Origin: Patescibacteria group bacterium
GTDB lineage: Bacteria; Patescibacteriota; Microgenomatia; UBA1400; PJMF01
Direction: 5' to 3'
DNA: 64,000 nucleotides
Assembly: GCA_049322655.1 (NCBI GenBank)
Contig: JBMORP010000002.1
Coordinates: 172,915-236,914, forward strand
Part shown: piece after piece, positions 1 to 24,991 of the stretch
Numbering within the stretch: the first letter of the stretch is position 1
Layout of the letters: each line of letters starts with the position of its first letter
Made by a program: the position numbers and the translations under genes
The notes under the pieces: model-generated
What the model saw: only the letters and a program-made list of their open reading frames with translations
Told to the model about the DNA's origin: nothing
Databases searched by the model: none

Positions 1-1
1 A

Positions 2-427
2 TGGAAAACCTACTCTTTAGCTGCTGACAATGATTTCCCTACTCCATTCCTAAATATTTTTAATCAAATAGAGTTAGTTGGTTTTACTGAATCTGATCAG
101 CCAACCGAAGCTGGCAGAATGATTATCTACTGTACTGATAACCCAGATGGAAAAGCTGTTTTAGATTTAAAAAATAAAATTACCACCGAGCTTGAAACTA
201 ACGAAGATCTTAAAGAAATTACTATTGTTTCTAGTTTAGAAAAAAAACTTTGGGGTAAAGCTAGTTTAGAGTTAGTTTTTTCTGGTAGAAATCTTGATGG
301 CCAAATTTTTTATGCAACTGCGACTAATAAGCATTTCTACTTAATTGGTAAACAAGTTACTAATCCTGATGAAAATGTTAAAAAAGATCTTGAGCGTATG
401 TTTAACGGTATTATCTTTTTGGACTAG
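2..427 (+). CDS. hypothetical protein, probably 5'-partial (frame open from window start; first in-window Met at 119)
   Basis: The ORF track gives 119..427. The same frame has no stop codon back to nt 2, which is unlikely by chance in AT-rich DNA. I recognise no motif. Confidence 0.4.
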   Translation, partial: WKTYSLAADNDFPTPFLNIFNQIELVGFTESDQPTEAGRMIIYCTDNPDGKAVLDLKNKITTELETNEDLKEITIVSSLEKKLWGKASLELVFSGRNLDGQIFYATATNKHFYLIGKQVTNPDENVKKDLERMFNGIIFLD

Positions 428-429
428 TG

Positions 430-502
430 TGGACCACAGGAGAATCGAACTCCTGACCTTTGCAATGCGAATGCAACGCTCTACCAACTGAGCTAGTGGC
501 CC
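430..502 (-). tRNA. tRNA-Ala (anticodon CGC), no encoded CCA
   Basis: The reverse complement folds as a cloverleaf: GGGCCAC acceptor stem with a G3:U70 pair, GCTCAGTTGGTAGAGC D-arm, anticodon loop TTCGCAT and a GGTTCGATTCC T-arm. Confidence 0.85.
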
Positions 503-569
503 GAATGTTGTTATTTTAACACTCTCATCTGCTTGACTAATCACTTGTTTTTTTATAGGATATATTAGT

Positions 570-672
570 TATGACAAAAGTAGCTGTTAAACTAGCTCAC
601 CATCATTCCCTCCGCTAAAGTGTGGGTAATGGTTGTTATTGTCTAAAATACCCGCACCAAGCGGGTTTTTTC
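570..672 (+). promoter_or_regulatory. candidate hisS attenuator: leader ORF MTKVAVKLAHHHSLR (570..617) plus antiterminator and terminator
   Basis: An AGGA motif sits 9 nt upstream of the ATG at 570. Codons CAC CAT CAT occupy 597..605 and the stop is at 615..617. gtgtgggta (619..627) can pair with tacccgcac (648..656), which is the 5' half of the terminator hairpin acccgc-accaa-gcgggt followed by TTTTT (649..670). This lies 55 nt before the hisS ATG. Confidence 0.4.
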
Positions 673-727
673 ATGGCAAACTGCCAACAAAACAATTTTA
701 AAAATCAGTACAATACAGAAAGAAGAT

Positions 728-1972
728 ATGACAAAACCACAAATACAAACCCTCAAAGGCTTTAGAGATTTTTTACCCAGAGAAAAAAGAGCTCGTAACT
801 TTGTGATGGCCAAAGTAACCGAAACATTTGAAACCTTTGGTTTTCAACCTTTGGAAACACCAACTTTGGAGTATGCTGCCCTATTACTTGGTAAATATGG
901 CGATGAAGCAGACAAACTAGTCTACAATTTTGAGGATCGTGGCGGACGAAAAATTGGCTTGCGTTATGACCAAACCGTCCCTAGCGCTAGAGTTTTGGCT
1001 CAATATCAAAGCCAGTTACCAAAATACTTTCGTCGTTACCAAATTCAAAATGTTTTCCGAGCAGAAAAACCTCAAAAAGGCAGATTCAGAGAATTTACTC
1101 AATGTGATATCGATATCTTTGGTAGTAATTCTCCCCTAGCCGATGCTGAAATCATGACTTGTACTTATCAAGCTTTCAAAAATGTTGGTTTTAAAAATGT
1201 CATTTTGAAGTTTAATGATCGAGAAACTCTGATTAAAACCTTAACTCCTTTTTCCAACACCCAAGTTAACGTCTTTTCGATCATTCAAAGTATTGATAAA
1301 TTAGATAAAATTAAACCCGAAGATGTAATCACTGAATTAGTTAAAAAAGGCCTAGAAAAAAACACCGCAGAAAAAACTTTGACATCAATAAAAGGTGCTG
1401 AAAAATCAGCAAATTTAAAAGAAATTGAACAAATTTCCATTAATTTGGGTATACCTAAAGAAGCTATCCAATTTACACCCACTTTGGCTCGTGGTTTAGA
1501 TTACTATACTGGCATGATTTTTGAAGTGATCATCCCAGAGTACTCAGCTGGCTCTTGTGGTGGTGGTGGTCGTTATGACAACCTAATTAAAGATTTGGGC
1601 GGCCCTCAAATTCCAGCCACTGGGATTGCTTTCGGGTTTGACCGCATGGTTGAAGCAGCCCAATCCCTACAAATCATTCCTGAAAATCAAGGCGTTGAGG
1701 TCTTGATGGCTAACTTTGACCAGCAAGCCCTTGCCACTGCCCTACAAGTAACAAATAAATTAAGACAGCTAAGCATTAAAACCGAGCTTTACCCAAACAT
1801 TGATAAGCTAGGTAAACAATTTAAATACGCTGATCAAAATAAAATACCTTATGTTTTTATCGTAGGTGAAGAGGAAATAAAAAACCAAACTATCTCGATT
1901 AAAAACATGCAAACAGGTGAACAAAAAGTTATTAGTGTTGAACAACTTGATTCATTCAGACAGGCTTGGTAA
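728..1972 (+). CDS. hisS: histidyl-tRNA synthetase
   Basis: Class II aaRS motifs (LRYDQT, GGGGRYD) with end-to-end HisRS-like sequence. Confidence 0.95.
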   Translation: MTKPQIQTLKGFRDFLPREKRARNFVMAKVTETFETFGFQPLETPTLEYAALLLGKYGDEADKLVYNFEDRGGRKIGLRYDQTVPSARVLAQYQSQLPKYFRRYQIQNVFRAEKPQKGRFREFTQCDIDIFGSNSPLADAEIMTCTYQAFKNVGFKNVILKFNDRETLIKTLTPFSNTQVNVFSIIQSIDKLDKIKPEDVITELVKKGLEKNTAEKTLTSIKGAEKSANLKEIEQISINLGIPKEAIQFTPTLARGLDYYTGMIFEVIIPEYSAGSCGGGGRYDNLIKDLGGPQIPATGIAFGFDRMVEAAQSLQIIPENQGVEVLMANFDQQALATALQVTNKLRQLSIKTELYPNIDKLGKQFKYADQNKIPYVFIVGEEEIKNQTISIKNMQTGEQKVISVEQLDSFRQAW

Positions 1973-1986
1973 AAACAGTTGGTCCA

Positions 1987-1995
1987 TGATATAAT
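1987..1995 (+). promoter_or_regulatory. extended -10 element TGATATAAT upstream of rpmE
   Basis: Perfect TGnTATAAT about 40 nt upstream of the rpmE ATG. AAGGAAA lies before the start. Confidence 0.4.
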
Positions 1996-2034
1996 CTCTT
2001 TCTTCGAGATAGATATCTTATTTTAAGGAAAAAA

Positions 2035-2391
2035 ATGAAAACAAATATACATCCTCAGTGGCACCATGACACTACCGTTACTTGTAGTTGTGGTAACACT
2101 TTTACCACTGGTTCCACCAAACAAAACATCACTGTAGATATTTGTAGTGCTTGTCACCCTTTCTTTACCGGTGAAATGAAGTTTGTTGATCGTCAAGGTC
2201 GTGTGGATCGCTTTATGGCAAAAATGAGGTTGGCTCAAGATAAACAAGCTACTGCCAAAAAGAAAACTAAAGCTGCTAATGACAAAACCAATCAACCAAA
2301 ATCTTATCAAGAGATTTTGCGTGAACAAAAATCAACTCTTCAACAATCAGCTAAAGCTACTGCCGAAGAAATCAAAGCTTCCCAAAATTAG
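2035..2391 (+). CDS. rpmE: ribosomal protein L31 with Lys-rich C-terminal tail
   Basis: CxxC...CxxC zinc ribbon and the HPFFTG motif typical of L31. Confidence 0.9.
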
Positions 2392-2437
2392 CTCATCAAA
2401 CTAGGCTTAAACTCATCTCTACCAATTAAGAGGTATA

Positions 2438-3406
2438 ATGAGTTTTATCTTTTCTATGCATAATCCCTATCTTGAACAAATTAACCAGCTATCAACAAAA
2501 ATTGCTGAAAATCAGGCTTTACTTACTGATCCTGATTTAGGTGAATTGGCTCAAGCGGAAATTACTGAGCTTGAAATTCAAAAAAAAGCCTTAGAAGACG
2601 CCGCTGAAGAGCTATTACAAGGCTCCAAAGGTAGTGAGAGTGGTGAGACAGATACTTCTAAATCTAGTGCTATTTTGGAAATAAGAGGTGGAGCTGGTGG
2701 TGATGAGGCTAAAATCTGGGCCAATGATTTGTTGCGCATGTATCTAAGGTTTATTGAGAACAATAACCTTAAAATGGAATACATCGATGACCTGGTAATC
2801 AAGATTCGTGGTCGTATCGAGTTAGGTGAAGAAACTCTTTATGCTTATGATTTATTCAAATATGAGTCAGGAGTTCACCGAGTCCAAAGAGTCCCTGAAA
2901 CAGAAGCCCAAGGTAGAATTCATACTTCGACAGCTTCAGTGGCTGTTTTGCCAGAAATTAAGGAGAATGCGATTGAAATTAGAGATGAAGATTTAGACTG
3001 GCAATTTATGCGAGCCGGTGGAGCTGGTGGCCAATCAGTGAATAAGACTAGTAGTGCTGTCCGTTTAACCCATACCCCCTCTGGAATTGTCGTAACTTCC
3101 AGTCAAGAGAGAAAACAAGCTCAAAATCGCCAAATTGCTTTGGAGTTACTTAGAGCCCAACTCTGGGAAATTGAAGAAGAAAAGAAACAAGCTGCTTTAG
3201 GAAATGCTCGAAAAGCCATCGGTCGTAACATGAGAGCTGAGAAGATTCGTACTTACAACTACCCTCAAAATCGAGTCACTGATCACCGGATTAATGTTTC
3301 TTGGCATAGCTTAGAAACTATTATTGAAGGCGACATTAAAAAAATGTTGCTAGAGGTGAGGCAAAAGCTAGAAACTCCAGAAGAAGAAACTAATCAGAGT
3401 GAGTAG
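2438..3406 (+). CDS. prfA: peptide chain release factor 1
   Basis: GGQ motif (RAGGAGGQSVNKT) and an RF1-type PxT tripeptide (PET) in VQRVPETEAQGRIHTS. Confidence 0.9.
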   Translation: MSFIFSMHNPYLEQINQLSTKIAENQALLTDPDLGELAQAEITELEIQKKALEDAAEELLQGSKGSESGETDTSKSSAILEIRGGAGGDEAKIWANDLLRMYLRFIENNNLKMEYIDDLVIKIRGRIELGEETLYAYDLFKYESGVHRVQRVPETEAQGRIHTSTASVAVLPEIKENAIEIRDEDLDWQFMRAGGAGGQSVNKTSSAVRLTHTPSGIVVTSSQERKQAQNRQIALELLRAQLWEIEEEKKQAALGNARKAIGRNMRAEKIRTYNYPQNRVTDHRINVSWHSLETIIEGDIKKMLLEVRQKLETPEEETNQSE

Positions 3407-7637: not shown

Positions 7638-9419
7638 TTATTTGACAGTCACACTTTTAGCTAGATTTCTTGGTTTATCAGGATCATTGCCTAATTTAAT
7701 CGCCAAGTAGTAAGCCAAAAGCTGAAAAGGAATAACCTTAGTAATTGGGTCAAGTTCTCCAAGCTCAGGTGCAACCAAATGCACATCAAAAAAATCATTG
7801 TTTTCTTGAGCAATACCGACTACCTTAGCACCTCTAGCCTTAACTTCCGCCAAAGCACTAATAACTTCATGTTGTTCCTGAATATCTCCTCCCACAATAC
7901 CAATTACAAAAGTGCCTTTTTCAATCAAAGCAATTACCCCATGTTTTAGTTCTCCAGCTGAAAAACCTTCAAAGTGCTTATAACTGATCTCCTTGATTTT
8001 TAAAGCACCCTCCAAAGCAGTATAAAAATGCTGATTTTTACCCAAAACAAAGACGTGTTCTTGATTGGCTAATTGTTGGGCTAGTTTTTTAAATACTGTT
8101 TGGTGATGGTGATCTGAAAAGTATGCTTGAAGTTGGTCAGCCAGTTGACGAATATTTTGTTGAGCTTGATCATATCTTCCCATGACTGTTTGAGCTAATA
8201 AATAACCCCAAACCAACTGAGACGTATAAGCTTTAGTGGAAGCAACACAAATTTCTGGACCTGATCTGGAAAAAAATTGGTAATCAGAAAATCTAGTCAA
8301 AGTTGAACCAACCATATTAACAATACTAGCCACCTCAACTTGTTTTTCTTTCAATTGTTCAATAACTGCTAACGTATCGGCTGTTTCTCCACTTTGACTA
8401 ACCGCAATCACCAAATCTTTTTGGGTAATTAGGGGCAAATAATTTGCTGATTCATAAGCTTTAAGTTCAAAAGCATTAATCCCAACCATCCTTAAAAACC
8501 TAGCAATTTGCCCAGCAGCGAAAGCCGCTGTACCAGCTCCCAGTGTATAAACTTTGTCAGCCATCTTGATTTTATTAACCAACTTAGAAAAATCTTGCTC
8601 ACTATAACTAGCTGCTTCGATTACCGTGTGTTGTTGCTCAAAAATCTCCTTGACCATAAAGTGCGGAAAGCCATCTTTATCTATCTTTTCTGCTTGTTGG
8701 GTTAAGAGATGTTTCTTAAAATTAAGTTTTTTGCCTGTTTTGACAGCAAACAATTGCACATTCCCATGACTAATTTTCACTAATTGGCCATCTAATACAT
8801 AAATTAGTTCAGGCACATTGCCCAATAAAGGCATCGTGTCAGAAGCCAAATAAACTTCTTGTCGGCCGACTCCCACTACCAACGGAGAACCTTGCCGAAC
8901 AGCAATAATTGTTTCGGTTAATTTATCCAAAACTACAAAAGTATTTCTGCCTGTTAACTGCAAAAAAGTTTGGCTAACAGCAACTCTCAAATCTTTAGTC
9001 TGCTGTAGCTGATAGTGCAGTAAATGTACAATTACCTCGGTATCGGTTTGGGTGGTAAATTTATAGCCAAGTTTTTTAAGTTGGTCTTTGAGTGGCAAAA
9101 AATTTTCAACAATACCATTTTGTACTACTGCAAATCTGCCATCAATTGATAAATGAGGGTGAGCATTATTCTTAGTCACGCCACCATGAGTTGCCCACCG
9201 AGTGTGACCAATCCCAAGCAAAGAAGGTTTTTTGTTTTTAGCAGCCAAACCAGTAATTTGGCCAGTTTTTTTATCAATAAAAATACCATGATCAGTAGTT
9301 AGAGCTACGCCCCAAGAGTCATAACCACGATACTCCATAGTCTTAAGCCCCGTAATAATTTTATTTGCTACTTGGGTTTGGTTGTTGAGATTACTACTGT
9401 AACCAATAATGCCACACAT
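7638..9419 (-). CDS. glmS: glutamine--fructose-6-phosphate aminotransferase
   Basis: MCGIIGY N-terminus and SIS domains. I trimmed the start to the Met preceding the catalytic Cys, because the longer ORF would bury Cys1. Confidence 0.95.
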   Translation of the reverse strand: MCGIIGYSSNLNNQTQVANKIITGLKTMEYRGYDSWGVALTTDHGIFIDKKTGQITGLAAKNKKPSLLGIGHTRWATHGGVTKNNAHPHLSIDGRFAVVQNGIVENFLPLKDQLKKLGYKFTTQTDTEVIVHLLHYQLQQTKDLRVAVSQTFLQLTGRNTFVVLDKLTETIIAVRQGSPLVVGVGRQEVYLASDTMPLLGNVPELIYVLDGQLVKISHGNVQLFAVKTGKKLNFKKHLLTQQAEKIDKDGFPHFMVKEIFEQQHTVIEAASYSEQDFSKLVNKIKMADKVYTLGAGTAAFAAGQIARFLRMVGINAFELKAYESANYLPLITQKDLVIAVSQSGETADTLAVIEQLKEKQVEVASIVNMVGSTLTRFSDYQFFSRSGPEICVASTKAYTSQLVWGYLLAQTVMGRYDQAQQNIRQLADQLQAYFSDHHHQTVFKKLAQQLANQEHVFVLGKNQHFYTALEGALKIKEISYKHFEGFSAGELKHGVIALIEKGTFVIGIVGGDIQEQHEVISALAEVKARGAKVVGIAQENNDFFDVHLVAPELGELDPITKVIPFQLLAYYLAIKLGNDPDKPRNLAKSVTVK

Positions 9420-9800
9420 GGTGTTCCCTTCTTTTTTGCAGACAAAACCTGCAAAAAACATTTGTTAAAAATGCTAGAACAAAGTAACTCCACCAAAAGC
9501 AGTGAATTCACTTAATACCTAGCTATAAAGGGAAAAATGAAGGGGTGTGAAGTTGTCTTTGGCCCAAAATTTACAGATTGGTTTTAAACTTCTTCTTGAG
9601 GTATACCCATACCTGAGGGTTTCCGCAGATGCTCTCTTTTGTGATTAGTAAAAGAAGCCCGATTGTTACCTTTTAAGGCAACCCCTCTTCCTCGTTTTCC
9701 GGGTTTCTATACAAAACCTGGACCACACGCTCTTTTTTGCAAGCAACATTTGCTCACCTTTGAAAGAAGCATAACAACCTCCAAGCAAAATGTCAAAAAC
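9420..9800 (-). promoter_or_regulatory. unusually long glmS 5' leader with GC-enriched structured core; possible glmS-ribozyme-like element
   Basis: The leader is about 380 nt in a compact genome. The segment cccggaaaACGAGGAaGAGGGG...CCCUC resembles the ACGAGGA / GGAGG...CCUCC core of the glmS ribozyme. A 10-bp hairpin lies just 5' of the RBS (9431..9457). Confidence 0.3.
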
Positions 9801-21033: not shown

Positions 21034-22149
21034 ATGAATTCAAAAACAACGCTCACCAAAACTAAAATCTTGGGCAAAGAATACCAATTTCCAATTTACT
21101 TGCCTGATGCCACTTTGGGGGTGGTAAGAGGTTTAGATAGTAAAACTGTGGCCAAAACCGGCATCAACGGAGTGGTTATCAACACTTATCATTTAATGAC
21201 TAATCCTGGTACGGAAGTCTTAGATCAAGTTGGTGGCATTAAAAAATTCATGAACTGGAATGGTTTAACAGCTTCTGATTCCGGTGGTTTTCAATTATTT
21301 TCTTTGCTTCACAAAAACCCCAAGCTAGGCAAAATTACTGATGATGGAGTTGTACTTTATAGTGGCGAAAAACAACAGAAAAAGATTTTATTTACCCCAG
21401 AAGACTCCATTCGCATTCAGTTCTCAATCCAAAGTGACATTATGATTTGTTTGGATGATTTTTCACCAATCGATGCTTCAGCAAAAAGACTACGTGAAAG
21501 TATTGATCGGACTGTTGCTTGGGCAAAGCGTTGCAAAGCAGAATTTACCAAACAATGCCACCAACTTGGCTATAATGATGAAAATAGACCATTATTAATT
21601 GGAGTCGTACAGGGTCATAATAATCATGAATTGAGAAAAGAATGTGCTCAAAAATTAGAAGCGATTGGCTTTGATGGTTATGGTTTGGGTGGCTGGCCTT
21701 TCAAAGCCGATGGTTCATTTGACTATGACATGTGTCAAATCACCGCTGACGTCACACCCAACAATAAAATTAGATTTGCTCTGGGAATTGGTAGTCCAGA
21801 AAATATCGTGAGACTTTATCAAATGGGCTATAACATTTTCGACTGTGTGCTCCCCACTAGAGATGCTAGACATCAAAGACTCTACACTTTTACCAAAAAT
21901 CCAACAACCATAGACTTTAACCGAGCTGAAAATTGGTATGACTACTTGTACATTGGTCGTGGATCATTCAAGCAAGATATCCAACCAATTGACCAATATT
22001 GTGACTGTCATACTTGTCAAAACTACTCTAGATCATACTTAAACCACTTATTTAAAGTTAAAGATAACTTGGCCTTTCATTTGGCAACCATTCACAACCT
22101 TCGCTTTTATGCCAAATTGATGGAGCTATTAAAAAACTTGTCAGTTTAA
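21034..22149 (+). CDS. tgt: queuine tRNA-ribosyltransferase
   Basis: TGT fold with the C-terminal zinc site CDCHTC...H. Confidence 0.9.
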   Translation: MNSKTTLTKTKILGKEYQFPIYLPDATLGVVRGLDSKTVAKTGINGVVINTYHLMTNPGTEVLDQVGGIKKFMNWNGLTASDSGGFQLFSLLHKNPKLGKITDDGVVLYSGEKQQKKILFTPEDSIRIQFSIQSDIMICLDDFSPIDASAKRLRESIDRTVAWAKRCKAEFTKQCHQLGYNDENRPLLIGVVQGHNNHELRKECAQKLEAIGFDGYGLGGWPFKADGSFDYDMCQITADVTPNNKIRFALGIGSPENIVRLYQMGYNIFDCVLPTRDARHQRLYTFTKNPTTIDFNRAENWYDYLYIGRGSFKQDIQPIDQYCDCHTCQNYSRSYLNHLFKVKDNLAFHLATIHNLRFYAKLMELLKNLSV

Positions 22150-23575: not shown

Positions 23576-24991
23576 TTACTTTTTAGTAATTTCTTGACCC
23601 GTTACTCCATCTTTAACTTGATAACCAAATTGTTCTAGCTGGTTTCTCAACTCATCTGCTAACTGCCAATTTTGGGTCATTCTAGCGTTAACTCTTTCGT
23701 TTGCTAATTCTTGAATATTTTCTGGTAAAGTCTCTTCTACTAAAAGATCTATTCTTGCCAACCCCAACCCCAGAATTTCGTCGAAACTAAGCAATAAACG
23801 ATACTTCTGTTGAGCTAACAAATCACTTGATAACACTTCCCACATTAATGCTACTGCTTCTGGTGTATGCAGATCGTTTTCGATGGCAGTAAAAAATCTC
23901 TTCTTAAACTCTTGTTCTTTGGCTAAAGCTTCAGCAGTTGGTTCAACCTCAGTTTCTTTATCTTTGATTAATTTTCTGATTTTGTCAGTTAGTTTTTCCC
24001 AAGAAACTTGAGCCCCCTCCATATTATCCCAAGTAAAATTCATTTCAGAACGATAGTGAGCTGAGAGCAATAAAAGTCTAAAAGCCATCGGGTCATAACC
24101 TTTTTTCTCTAAATCATCTAGAGTAAAAAAATTATTGAGCGACTTACTCATTTTTTGACCTTCGACTGACAAGAAGTTATGGTGAACCCAATATTTAACA
24201 AAAGGTTTTTTACCTGTAGCCGCTTCACTCTGAGCAATCTCATTAGTGTGATGAACTGGGATATGATCGATACCACCAGTATGAATATCGATTTGCTCAC
24301 CCAAGTGCTCCATGCTAATTGCCGAACACTCGATGTGCCAACCAGGAAAACTTCTGGGATGCCAAGGACTGGCCCAAGCCATAGCTCGATTCTCACCTGA
24401 TCTTTCAAATTTCCATAAAGCAAAATCAGTGGGATTTTTCTTTCCGGCTACTTTCTCTACTCTAGCTCCTTCTTGCAAGTGTTCTCGATCTAAGTGAGCC
24501 AATTTGCCATAGTCAGGCAGTTTGCTAGTATCAAAATAAACTCCATCATCTGGAATAACATAAGTGAAACCCCTTTCTTCCAGTTTTTTAACTAACTCTA
24601 ACTGATTTTGAATGTGTTCGGTCACTCTGCTGGTAATATTTGGCCTAACATTACCAACTTTATCCATACTGTGATGAAAATAGTCTTCAAACTTTCTAGC
24701 AATATCCCAAGCAGTCATACCATATTTTTTGGCACCTTTTTCTAATTTATCCTCACCTGTGTCGGCATCTGAAGACAAATGACCAACATCAGTAATATTA
24801 CGCACAAACTTCACTTCATAACCAGCATGACGTAAAGCTCTCACCAAAACATCATCCATAGTATATTTTCTGACGTGACCAATATGGGTGTAGTCATAAA
24901 CAGTGGGGCCACAAGCATAAAGCGTCACTAAATCAGGATTTCTGGGAGAAAATTCTTCTACTTTTCTGGAAAGAGTGTTGTAGAGTTTCAT
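23576..24991 (-). CDS. cysS: cysteinyl-tRNA synthetase
   Basis: HIGH (YTHIGH) and KMSKS motifs with zinc-binding cysteines. Confidence 0.95.
   Translation of the reverse strand: MKLYNTLSRKVEEFSPRNPDLVTLYACGPTVYDYTHIGHVRKYTMDDVLVRALRHAGYEVKFVRNITDVGHLSSDADTGEDKLEKGAKKYGMTAWDIARKFEDYFHHSMDKVGNVRPNITSRVTEHIQNQLELVKKLEERGFTYVIPDDGVYFDTSKLPDYGKLAHLDREHLQEGARVEKVAGKKNPTDFALWKFERSGENRAMAWASPWHPRSFPGWHIECSAISMEHLGEQIDIHTGGIDHIPVHHTNEIAQSEAATGKKPFVKYWVHHNFLSVEGQKMSKSLNNFFTLDDLEKKGYDPMAFRLLLLSAHYRSEMNFTWDNMEGAQVSWEKLTDKIRKLIKDKETEVEPTAEALAKEQEFKKRFFTAIENDLHTPEAVALMWEVLSSDLLAQQKYRLLLSFDEILGLGLARIDLLVEETLPENIQELANERVNARMTQNWQLADELRNQLEQFGYQVKDGVTGQEITKK

What the first reader, a model, noticed from the sequence alone, without database searches (positions are those of the whole stretch)
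506..727. Candidate ribosome-mediated His attenuator upstream of hisS
Directly upstream of hisS there is a 15-codon ORF (570..617, MTKVAVKLAHHHSLR) with an AGGA about 9 nt before its ATG and three consecutive His codons just before its stop. A 9-bp segment (619..627) can pair with the 5' half of a downstream GC hairpin (acccgc/gcgggt followed by T5, 649..670) that ends 55 nt before the hisS ATG. The geometry matches the classic his/trp model. A ribosome stalled at the His codons frees region 2 to form the antiterminator, while a ribosome at the stop codon masks it and allows termination. A leader-peptide attenuator on an aminoacyl-tRNA synthetase gene, where T-boxes are the usual solution, would be unusual. 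A fragment resembling the T-box UGGG bulge was considered, but the leader is too short for stem I.
Basis: partly seen in the sequence, partly recalled or inferred. Interest (0 to 1): 0.6.

Follow-up and report, generated by a model that had tools for sequence, protein, structure and literature searches.

The report
Histidine leader-peptide attenuator before hisS
A 15-codon mini-gene with three histidine codons, followed by a switchable terminator hairpin, sits in front of the histidyl-tRNA synthetase gene of a candidate-phyla-radiation bacterium; the same design recurs in dozens of relatives, so it is very probably a classic histidine-sensing attenuator in a lineage where none had been described.

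Summary
The leader ORF is 571..618 (MTKVAVKLAHHHSLR), with His codons at 598-606. The terminator stem is 650-666, followed by five more T (667-671). Segment 620-628 pairs with 649-657 as a 9-bp antiterminator. Segment 624-636 alternatively pairs with the His-codon region 599-610.

Rfam finds no T-box and no enterobacterial His leader.

Of 160 orthologous hisS loci from Microgenomates/Pacebacteria genomes and metagenomes, about 45 carry a 13-25 codon ORF that conserves only a His run, followed by a terminator. An HH mini-ORF plus terminator occurs in 23/131 hisS-upstream windows against 7/2976 control windows. Antiterminator complementarity is locus-specific, and the terminator stem covaries. 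Masking the RNA as a stalled ribosome would removes the terminator in the window and in 16/25 loci. A ribosome placed at the stop codon restores it in 25/25.

In some relatives the same leader heads operons containing hisG-like and hisD genes before hisS.

One correction: the "AGGA" is most likely the -10 promoter box, so the leader ORF is probably leaderless. hisS also seems to have its own proximal promoter.

Verdict: supported. This is a new member of a known kind. Precedents are E. coli pheST and a predicted Bacillus hisS-paralog His leader.

The parts
533..561 (+). Promoter P1 (inferred): -35 TTGACT 533-538, 17-nt spacer, -10 TAGGAT 556-561.
   Evidence: Consensus scan. The same position holds TATAAT/TATACT/TACAAT in 21/26 related leaders, ending 6-10 nt before the leader ATG with no SD. 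The transcription start site has not been measured.
571..618 (+). Leader ORF, 15 codons plus stop, MTKVAVKLAHHHSLR. Probably translated from a leaderless or near-leaderless 5' end.
   Evidence: Sequence. Equivalent ORFs that conserve only the His run occur in about 45 related loci.
598..606 (+). Three consecutive His codons (CAC CAT CAT). This is the proposed sensing site, where ribosomes stall when charged tRNA-His is scarce.
   Evidence: CAY-CAY columns are invariant in alignment A1. His is the top doublet residue in mini-ORFs with a terminator upstream of hisS: 23 loci, against 13 for the next residue, Leu.
599..610 (+). Region 1, the 5' strand of the anti-antiterminator helix 1:2. It overlaps His codons 1-3 and the next codon.
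   Evidence: MFE fold. The helix is recovered in most relatives. WIN has U607-A628 where L001 has A-U, a compensatory change (sequences). On the CM alignment the cells are 64-69% paired.
620..636 (+). Region 2. Bases 624-636 pair with region 1; bases 620-628 pair with region 3 as the antiterminator. It starts 2 nt after the stop codon.
   Evidence: In 18 loci the antiterminator strand starts between 12 nt before and 5 nt after the first base of the stop codon, and at +2 to +3 in 11 of them.
649..657 (+). Region 3, the 3' strand of the antiterminator. It overlaps the whole 5' arm of the terminator plus two loop bases.
   Evidence: RNAduplex -15.5 kcal/mol. Same-locus against cross-locus permutation gives p<5e-5. 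Leaders have a median of -13.7 against -7.2 kcal/mol for 49 control terminators, p=3e-6.
650..671 (+). Intrinsic terminator (regions 3:4): stem 650-655/661-666, loop ACCAA, then T 667-671.
   Evidence: The helix is 95.3% paired across 43 sequences, and all 6 pairs show compensatory changes. On the MAFFT alignment it is 89.9% paired and 0/500 shuffles reach that value.
709..714 (+). TACAAT box 13 nt before the hisS ATG. Putative second, basal promoter P2 (-10 box) downstream of the terminator.
   Evidence: TAYAAT lies within 45 nt of the hisS ATG in 17/29 leader loci and 63/112 other loci, against 2.8% of random windows. Inferred only.
728..1972 (+). hisS, histidine--tRNA ligase (414 aa). This is the regulated gene.
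   Evidence: TIGR00442, 403.6 bits, cutoff 286.75.

Best explanation
This is a histidine-responsive, ribosome-mediated transcription attenuator.

**Start of the transcript.** Transcription from P1 (TTGACT-17-TAGGAT) starts at or within a few bases of the ATG at 571. The 15-codon leader ORF is therefore translated as a leaderless mRNA while RNA polymerase moves on.

**His-tRNA(His) plentiful.** The ribosome runs to the stop codon (616-618). Its footprint covers region 2 (620-628), so region 3 pairs with region 4. The terminator 650-666 plus its T-run forms, and transcription ends before hisS.

**Leader not translated.** Region 1 (599-610, the His codons) pairs with region 2 (624-636), and the terminator again forms.

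**Charged tRNA-His scarce.** The ribosome stalls on codons 598-606. This hides region 1 and leaves region 2 free. Region 2 pairs with 649-657 as the antiterminator before region 4 is made, and polymerase reads through into hisS.

**Basal expression.** A separate proximal promoter (-10 box at 709-714) probably supplies basal hisS expression. The attenuator would then add an inducible component.

**Shown:** the elements, their mutual exclusivity, their conservation and covariation, and their association with hisS and his genes.

**Inferred:** the transcription start, translation of the leader, stalling, and the in vivo response.
For: - **Anatomy in the window.** The ORF, His codons, 1:2 helix, 2:3 helix and terminator are all present.
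- **Ribosome-masking folds for the window.** With the A site on His1 or His2, 0 of 6 terminator pairs form (-22.3 and -16.7 kcal/mol). With the A site on the stop, 6/6 form. Untranslated, 6/6 form.
- **The same folds across 25 non-redundant loci.** The terminator is lost in 16/25 when the ribosome is stalled. It is present in 25/25 at the stop and in 18/25 untranslated.
- **Conservation of the mini-ORF.** Mini-ORFs of 13-25 codons share only a run of 2-5 His codons, 1-9 codons before the stop. Examples: MLLSNATTQVHHHTLL, MQKINEKTSVFHHHSST, MTTQIVITTHHHHTLD, MNTFLHTHHHHHYFRGLCF.
- **Enrichment.** 23/131 hisS-upstream windows against 7/2976 controls, and His is the top doublet residue.
- **Antiterminator specificity.** Same-locus mean is -13.6 against -9.5 kcal/mol cross-locus, permutation p<5e-5. 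It is stronger than at control terminators, p=3e-6.
- **Terminator covariation.** 95% of cells are paired, and 6/6 pairs show double changes.
- **Covariance model R1.** It finds one copy in the 64-kb window (72.9 bits). In the 160 loci, every hit with E<0.003 lies on the hisS strand and 5' of hisS.
- **Link to histidine metabolism.** In L033 the leader heads a HisG-like + HisD + hisS operon.
Against: - There are no expression data. The promoter, the start site and translation of the leader are inferred from consensus matches only.
- At equilibrium the terminator still wins in 8/25 loci when the stalled ribosome is modelled. Those cases would need kinetic (co-transcriptional) folding.
- A likely second promoter between the terminator and hisS means hisS does not depend on read-through. 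The size of the regulatory effect is unknown.
- On a plain MAFFT alignment the antiterminator columns are not clearly better than a +1 slide, because the register varies between subfamilies.
- One family member (L016/L115) has only a single His codon.
- In L010 the leader precedes an aromatic/histidine ammonia-lyase-family gene. Inducing it under His starvation would be counter-intuitive.
Confidence: 0.85

Rival explanations
1. It is an independent small transcription unit: a ~100-nt sRNA or a small-peptide gene with its own promoter and terminator. It merely neighbours hisS, which is expressed from its own proximal promoter. Read-through would play no regulatory role.
For: A TACAAT/TATAAT box sits between the terminator and the hisS ATG in the window (709-714) and in most relatives. 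The predicted default state is termination. Attenuator-derived RNAs can act in trans, as shown for rnTrpL (PMC6614838, listed).
Against: - The unit is always on the hisS strand and 5' of hisS or of an operon containing hisS.
- Only the His run of the peptide is conserved.
- The locus-specific antiterminator and the placement of the stop codon next to region 2 have no purpose in a plain sRNA or peptide gene.
- A trans role would not exclude the cis role.
Confidence: 0.07
2. The mini-ORF is a chance ORF. The hairpin is simply an insulating or bidirectional terminator in the divergent tRNA-Ala/hisS intergenic region.
For: The ORF is short and has only three His codons. The hairpin has an A-rich 5' flank, so it could also terminate on the minus strand. 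In the window the AGGA is not a convincing SD.
Against: - No gene reads into this hairpin from either side in the window. The tRNA-Ala gene points away, and hisS starts downstream.
- The combination of HH mini-ORF and terminator is about 75-fold enriched upstream of hisS.
- The His codons stay in frame with an ATG and a stop in about 45 loci, while the rest of the sequence diverges.
Confidence: 0.03
3. It is an RNA sensor that does not need translation: a miniature T-box-like tRNA-His sensor or a ligand- or protein-controlled antiterminator. The His codons would act as specifier-like or binding elements.
For: T-boxes are the usual control for hisS in Firmicutes (PMC2965389). Region 2 contains UGGG. 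An antiterminator/terminator pair is also the output module of T-boxes.
Against: - No T-box or any other Rfam cis-regulator is found, even at E<=10 over 1-3000 or at gathering threshold over the window.
- The whole leader is about 100 nt, with no stem I or specifier loop.
- The antiterminator is a plain helix without the 7-nt bulge.
- Two to five tandem in-frame CAY codons, an ATG directly after the -10 box, and a stop next to region 2 are all conserved. That pattern is expected only for translation-based sensing.
Confidence: 0.03

Closest known systems
Enterobacterial his operon leader (hisL; Rfam His_leader RF00514) and the trp/phe/thr/leu leader-peptide attenuators
   Same: A short leader ORF carries tandem codons for the cognate amino acid. 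Three mutually exclusive helices (1:2, 2:3, 3:4) end in an intrinsic terminator. Ribosome position decides between terminator and antiterminator.
   Different: - No sequence/structure match to the Rfam model.
- 3 His codons rather than 7.
- It controls the synthetase gene hisS rather than a biosynthetic operon, although relatives include hisG-like/hisD.
- No Shine-Dalgarno; the ORF is probably leaderless.
- The host is a candidate-phyla-radiation (Microgenomates/Pacebacteria) bacterium.
E. coli pheST operon attenuator with leader peptide pheM (own knowledge: Springer, Fayat and co-workers, 1980s)
   Same: A leader-peptide transcription attenuator controls an aminoacyl-tRNA synthetase gene, and starvation for the cognate amino acid increases synthetase transcription.
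   Different: A different amino acid (Phe), a different phylum, and an SD-led leader ORF. There is no sequence relationship.
Predicted His leader peptide upstream of the Bacillus hisS paralog (hisS*) and hisZ (Naville & Gautheret 2010, PMC2965389)
   Same: A short ORF with a stretch of His codons, followed by a premature terminator, lies upstream of a hisS-family gene. It was found by comparative genomics and has not been tested experimentally.
   Different: It is in Firmicutes, on a paralog rather than the sole housekeeping hisS. I could not compare the sequences here. Relatedness is unknown, and independent origin is likely.
Leaderless poly-Cys short-ORF attenuators of mycobacteria (Canestrari et al., bioRxiv 10.1101/834739)
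   Same: The sensory mini-ORF starts at or next to the transcript's 5' end and has no SD. Ribosome stalling on a run of cognate codons remodels the downstream RNA structure.
   Different: The mycobacterial elements act on translation, by unmasking the downstream ribosome-binding site. The element here ends in a canonical intrinsic terminator 56 nt before the gene, which indicates control of transcription.
T-box riboswitch (RF00230), the usual hisS regulator in Firmicutes
   Same: The same regulatory logic (uncharged tRNA-His leads to more HisRS) and the same terminator/antiterminator output.
   Different: No stem I, specifier loop or T-box bulge, and no covariance-model hit. Sensing here goes through translation of His codons.

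Membership tests
Ribosome-mediated (leader-peptide) transcription attenuators | Short ORF upstream of the regulated gene with tandem codons for the cognate amino acid | tested here: met
   ORF 571-618 with CAC CAT CAT at 598-606 upstream of hisS. Conserved as a His run in about 45 related loci.
Ribosome-mediated (leader-peptide) transcription attenuators | Intrinsic terminator between the leader ORF and the gene | tested here: met
   Stem 650-666 followed by T 667-671. 95.3% paired, with compensatory changes at all 6 pairs across 43 sequences.
Ribosome-mediated (leader-peptide) transcription attenuators | Antiterminator helix (2:3) mutually exclusive with the terminator | tested here: met
   620-628 pairs with 649-657, -15.5 kcal/mol. 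Same-locus against cross-locus p<5e-5. Stronger than at 49 control terminators, p=3e-6. The column-wise test on the MAFFT alignment was inconclusive.
Ribosome-mediated (leader-peptide) transcription attenuators | Anti-antiterminator helix (1:2) that overlaps the regulatory codons | tested here: met
   599-610 pairs with 624-636 in the MFE fold. Found in most relatives (permutation p=0.01). 64-69% of cells are paired. One compensatory change between WIN and L001.
Ribosome-mediated (leader-peptide) transcription attenuators | Geometry: a ribosome at the stop codon masks region 2, and a ribosome on the regulatory codons masks region 1 only | tested here: met
   Region 2 starts 2 nt after the stop. 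Footprint-masked folds: terminator 0/6 pairs when stalled, 6/6 at the stop. Across relatives, the terminator is lost in 16/25 when stalled and formed in 25/25 at the stop.
Ribosome-mediated (leader-peptide) transcription attenuators | The leader is translated, and read-through responds to charged tRNA levels | not testable with these tools
   This needs reporter, in vitro coupled transcription-translation, or transcriptome/ribosome-profiling data.
Rfam His_leader (RF00514) | Match to the family covariance model | tested here: not met
   No hit at E<=10 in 1-3000 or at gathering threshold over the window.
T-box riboswitch (RF00230) | Match to the covariance model, including stem I with specifier loop and the T-box antiterminator bulge | tested here: not met
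   No hit at E<=10 or at gathering threshold. The leader is about 100 nt, and the antiterminator is an unbulged helix.
Leaderless sensory short ORFs (actinobacterial type) | The start codon lies at or next to the transcription start, with no Shine-Dalgarno | tested here: inconclusive
   A -10-like box ends 6-10 nt before the ATG in most of the 26 leaders. 21/26 have no SD-like 4-mer. In the window's subclade the box reads TAGGAT. The start site itself is not measured.

The most novel reading that the evidence does not exclude
The window element would be one member of an undescribed family of leaderless His-leader attenuators specific to Microgenomates/Pacebacteria (Patescibacteria). The family forms a small histidine regulon: hisS alone, hisG-like/hisD/hisS operons, and peptidase- or lyase-containing operons. 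It would be the first amino-acid-sensing attenuator described in the candidate phyla radiation. Because this mechanism needs a ribosome closely following RNA polymerase, it would also imply coupled transcription and translation in these reduced, mostly uncultured bacteria.
Probability: 0.6. Interest if true: 0.6.

Novelty: new member of a known kind. Interest (0 to 1): 0.45.

Why it matters
Leader-peptide attenuation is a textbook mechanism, so the mechanism itself is not new. Three things are new:

- **Lineage.** Candidate-phyla-radiation bacteria have tiny genomes and almost no characterised gene regulation. Full-text searches found no paper combining Patescibacteria or CPR with leader-peptide or transcription attenuation.
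- **Target.** The element controls the housekeeping histidyl-tRNA synthetase gene, where T-boxes are the usual solution.
- **Start of the leader.** The leader ORF is apparently leaderless.

The family has about 45 loci, and a working covariance model now exists. That gives a sequence-level handle on how these organisms sense amino-acid supply, which most likely comes from hosts or the environment. It also offers a compact element that can be tested in heterologous or cell-free systems, and it could be added to RNA family databases to improve annotation of CPR genomes.

Tried and rejected
- **Rfam.** Only a sub-threshold isrK hit overlaps the leader (24.4 bits against a gathering score of 50, E=0.018). 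It is driven by the terminator and was rejected as chance. No T-box or His_leader was found.
- **Antiterminator covariation on the MAFFT alignment A1.** The result was uninformative: 70.6% paired against 67.4% for a +1 slide, because the register of region 2 differs between subfamilies. I replaced it with register-free duplex tests using cross-locus and control-terminator controls.
- **AGGA as a Shine-Dalgarno.** Rejected in favour of the -10 box after comparison with relatives.
- **Other attenuators of this type in the window.**
  - The terminator scan found no other terminator placed in a 5' leader.
  - The scan for ATG mini-ORFs with residue runs found no other one followed by a terminator.
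  - The cysS upstream region has no Cys leader.
  - The covariance model finds only one copy.
- **Literature.** The search for pheM/pheST returned mostly unrelated papers, so that precedent is cited from my own knowledge.
- **Not attempted.** Protein structure and homology tools, because the 15-residue peptide is not conserved apart from the His run.

Full report
**1. What is in the sequence**

The window comes from a low-GC (about 36%) candidate-phyla-radiation bacterium. Its closest HisS relatives (77% identity) are Candidatus Pacebacteria/Paceibacterota and other Microgenomates-group MAGs.

Between a tRNA-Ala(CGC) gene on the minus strand (429-502) and hisS lies a 225-nt intergenic region. 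hisS is 728-1972 on the plus strand (TIGR00442, 403.6 bits against a cutoff of 286.75).
- an ORF from ATG 571 to TAA 616-618, encoding MTKVAVKLAHHHSLR;
- His codons at 598-606;
- AGGA at 557-560;
- a hairpin ACCCGC-ACCAA-GCGGGT at 650-666, followed by T 667-671;
- 56 nt before the hisS ATG.

**2. Alternative structures**

The minimum-free-energy fold of 560-680 is -32.9 kcal/mol, with z = -3.06 and 0/200 shuffles as stable. It pairs the His-codon segment 599-610 with 624-636 (helix 1:2) and forms the terminator (helix 3:4).

Segment 620-628 is also fully complementary to 649-657 (9 bp, one G-U, -15.5 kcal/mol). That second segment covers the whole 5' arm of the terminator, so this helix (2:3) is an antiterminator.

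I then masked the RNA as a ribosome would, leaving free the bases from 13 nt past the first base of the A-site codon:
- With the A site on His1 or His2, the best fold has 0 of 6 terminator pairs (-22.3 and -16.7 kcal/mol).
- With the A site on the stop codon, the terminator is complete.
- With no ribosome, the terminator is complete.

This is the classic his/trp logic.

**3.

I fetched 80 hisS loci from GTDB species representatives and 80 from JGI metagenomes.

Many of them have a mini-ORF of 13-25 codons directly upstream of hisS. The only conserved feature of these ORFs is a run of 2-5 His codons, 1-9 codons before the stop. Examples: MLLSNATTQVHHHTLL, MLNIAVISAHHHTLLC, MQKINEKTSVFHHHSST, MQYKTTKNTESHHHPLSRGL, MLQNTILLATHHHSHI, MTTQIVITTHHHHTLD, MNTFLHTHHHHHYFRGLCF, MQKSIAQLLVAHHHLL. 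Each ORF is followed, 21-48 nt after its stop, by a GC-rich hairpin plus T-run.

Enrichment:
- A mini-ORF with HH near its end plus a terminator occurs in 23 of 131 non-redundant hisS-upstream 400-nt windows.
- The same combination occurs in 7 of 2976 control windows from the same loci.
- Among all 20 amino acids, His is the most frequent doublet (23 loci). The next is Leu with 13, and Leu occurs in the same leaders.

**4. Structure conservation**

*Terminator.* The stem sequence differs between subfamilies (ACCCGC, GATCCCC, AACTCCC, AACCCTCT, AACCGCT and others) but stays paired.
- On a MAFFT alignment of 25 leaders, 89.9% of cells are paired, 17 cells carry double changes, and 0/500 shuffles reach this.
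- On a 43-sequence alignment fitted to the model, 95.3% are paired and all 6 pairs show compensatory changes.

*Antiterminator.* It covaries with the terminator arm.
- Duplex energy between each locus's post-stop zone and its own terminator arm averages -13.6 kcal/mol.
- Against other loci's arms it averages -9.5 kcal/mol. None of 20,000 permutations was as low.
- The leader median is -13.7 kcal/mol. At 49 ordinary terminators from the same sequences the median is -7.2 kcal/mol (Mann-Whitney p = 3e-6).
- In 18 loci the antiterminator strand starts between 12 nt before and 5 nt after the first base of the stop codon. In 11 of them it starts at +2 to +3.

*Helix 1:2.* It generally includes the CAUCAUCAC run (permutation p = 0.01). 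Between the window and its closest relative L001 there is a compensatory change: U607-A628 becomes A-U (sequences).

*Inconclusive test.* A column-wise test of the antiterminator on the MAFFT alignment was inconclusive because the register shifts between subfamilies.

*Footprint-masked folds across 25 loci.*
- Stalled on His: the terminator is lost in 16.
- At the stop codon: the terminator forms in 25.
- Untranslated: the terminator forms in 18.

**5. A covariance model extends the family**

Model R1 has 110 positions and 16 pairs.
- It finds a single strong copy in the 64-kb window (571-675, 72.9 bits).
- In the 160 loci it gives 52 hits with E<0.003. All lie on the hisS strand and 5' of hisS.
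- About 15 of these lie 0.3-2.5 kb upstream, heading operons in which hisS is a later gene. Each again has a His-run mini-ORF, for example MRSLSLHHHHSHE, MINNYRQTLAIHHHSLHIMGVRSRV, MLIKDVQNQLRHHHHAI and MQKLFVTLAAHHHSLL.

The intervening genes were identified:
- L033: a HisG-like protein and histidinol dehydrogenase (476 bits).
- L077: an M20 peptidase.
- L014: a GNAT protein and an M15 dipeptidase.
- L010: an aromatic/histidine ammonia-lyase-family enzyme.

The association with histidine biosynthesis genes independently ties the element to histidine. The lyase case is not explained.

**6. Correction: promoter, not Shine-Dalgarno**

In 21 of 26 leaders there is no SD-like sequence. Instead a TATAAT-like box ends 6-10 nt before the ATG, often with TTGAC(T/C/A) 17 nt upstream.

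In the window's subclade (window, L001, L002, L005, L086) the same position reads TAGGAT, and TTGACT lies 17 nt upstream (533-538/556-561).

This is known for sensory short ORFs in Actinobacteria (bioRxiv 10.1101/834739). Here it is inferred from consensus matches, not measured.

**7. A second promoter**

Between the terminator and the hisS ATG most loci have another TACAAT/TATAAT box; in the window it is at 709-714.
- TAYAAT lies within 45 nt of the hisS ATG in 17/29 leader loci.
- It does so in 63/112 other loci.
- It does so in 2.8% of random windows.

hisS, an essential gene, therefore probably has basal expression from its own promoter, and the attenuator would add a His-starvation-inducible component. 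This feature also feeds the main rival reading, an independent small transcription unit. That rival does not explain the His codons, the stop-codon geometry, the locus-specific antiterminator or the strict association with hisS.

**8. Comparison with what is known**

By design this is a leader-peptide transcription attenuator of the his/trp/pheST kind, and every sequence-level defining feature that I could test is met.
- It is not a member of Rfam His_leader or T-box.
- Synthetase genes under leader-peptide attenuation are known: E. coli pheST/pheM (my own knowledge).
- A His leader peptide was predicted upstream of a Bacillus hisS paralog and hisZ (PMC2965389).
- I found no paper combining Patescibacteria or candidate phyla radiation with leader-peptide or transcription attenuation. 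That library is not exhaustive.

**9. Verdict**

- I rate it a new member of a known kind. It is a well-supported, apparently undescribed family of about 45 His-leader attenuators in Microgenomates-group CPR bacteria.
- Confidence that it works as a His-responsive attenuator is 0.85.
- Interest is moderate (0.45). The mechanism is textbook, but the lineage, the target gene and the leaderless layout are noteworthy, and the element is readily testable.

Noticed in passing
window 9539-9742 (-), upstream of ORF 7638-9461 (-): A glmS ribozyme (RF00234, 42.2 bits against a gathering score of 37) lies directly upstream of a glmS gene (TIGR01135, 562.8 bits). This is a second cis-regulatory RNA in the window.
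   Followed up: partly
window 709-714 (+); also L001, L005, L013, L041, L061, L086, L117, L120, L129 and others between terminator and hisS: A TACAAT/TATAAT box lies within 45 nt of the hisS start in 17/29 leader loci and 63/112 other loci, against 2.8% of random windows. hisS probably has its own basal promoter downstream of the attenuator.
   Followed up: partly
L033:446-577, L034:2134-2265, L078:1329-1447, L010:498-626, L014:668-803, L077:27-160, L093:574-673, L138:631-760: The same His-leader element heads operons in which hisS is a later gene. Intervening genes include a HisG-like protein and histidinol dehydrogenase (L033), an M20 peptidase (L077), a GNAT protein plus an M15 dipeptidase (L014), and several proteins without a Pfam hit.
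   Followed up: partly
L010:624-2249: In this locus the His leader precedes an aromatic/histidine ammonia-lyase-family gene (PF00221, 556 bits). Inducing a histidine-degrading enzyme under His starvation would be paradoxical, so the enzyme's real substrate or the direction of control is unexplained.
   Followed up: no
L016:2844-2947 (= L115:1344-1447): A family member by covariance model (40.6 bits) has a mini-ORF (MSKEKTNKINNSHSILPRGG) with only one His codon. It may be a decaying or re-purposed attenuator.
   Followed up: no
window 562-590 (-) and tRNA-Ala 429-502 (-): A promoter-like site on the minus strand (TTAACA-17-TAATAT) could drive the divergent tRNA-Ala(CGC) gene. It overlaps the start of the leader ORF on the other strand, so the two promoters may be back to back or overlapping.
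   Followed up: no
window 23576-24991 (-) and 21034-22149 (+): The window also encodes cysS, whose 89-nt upstream region has no Cys mini-ORF or terminator. It also encodes tgt (queuine tRNA transglycosylase), whose substrates are known from E. coli (my own knowledge) to include tRNA-His.
   Followed up: partly
hisS start regions of all 156 loci with a mapped hisS start: Only 38 of 156 hisS genes have an SD-like 4-mer within 16 nt of the start codon. This suggests weak reliance on Shine-Dalgarno pairing in this lineage.
   Followed up: no
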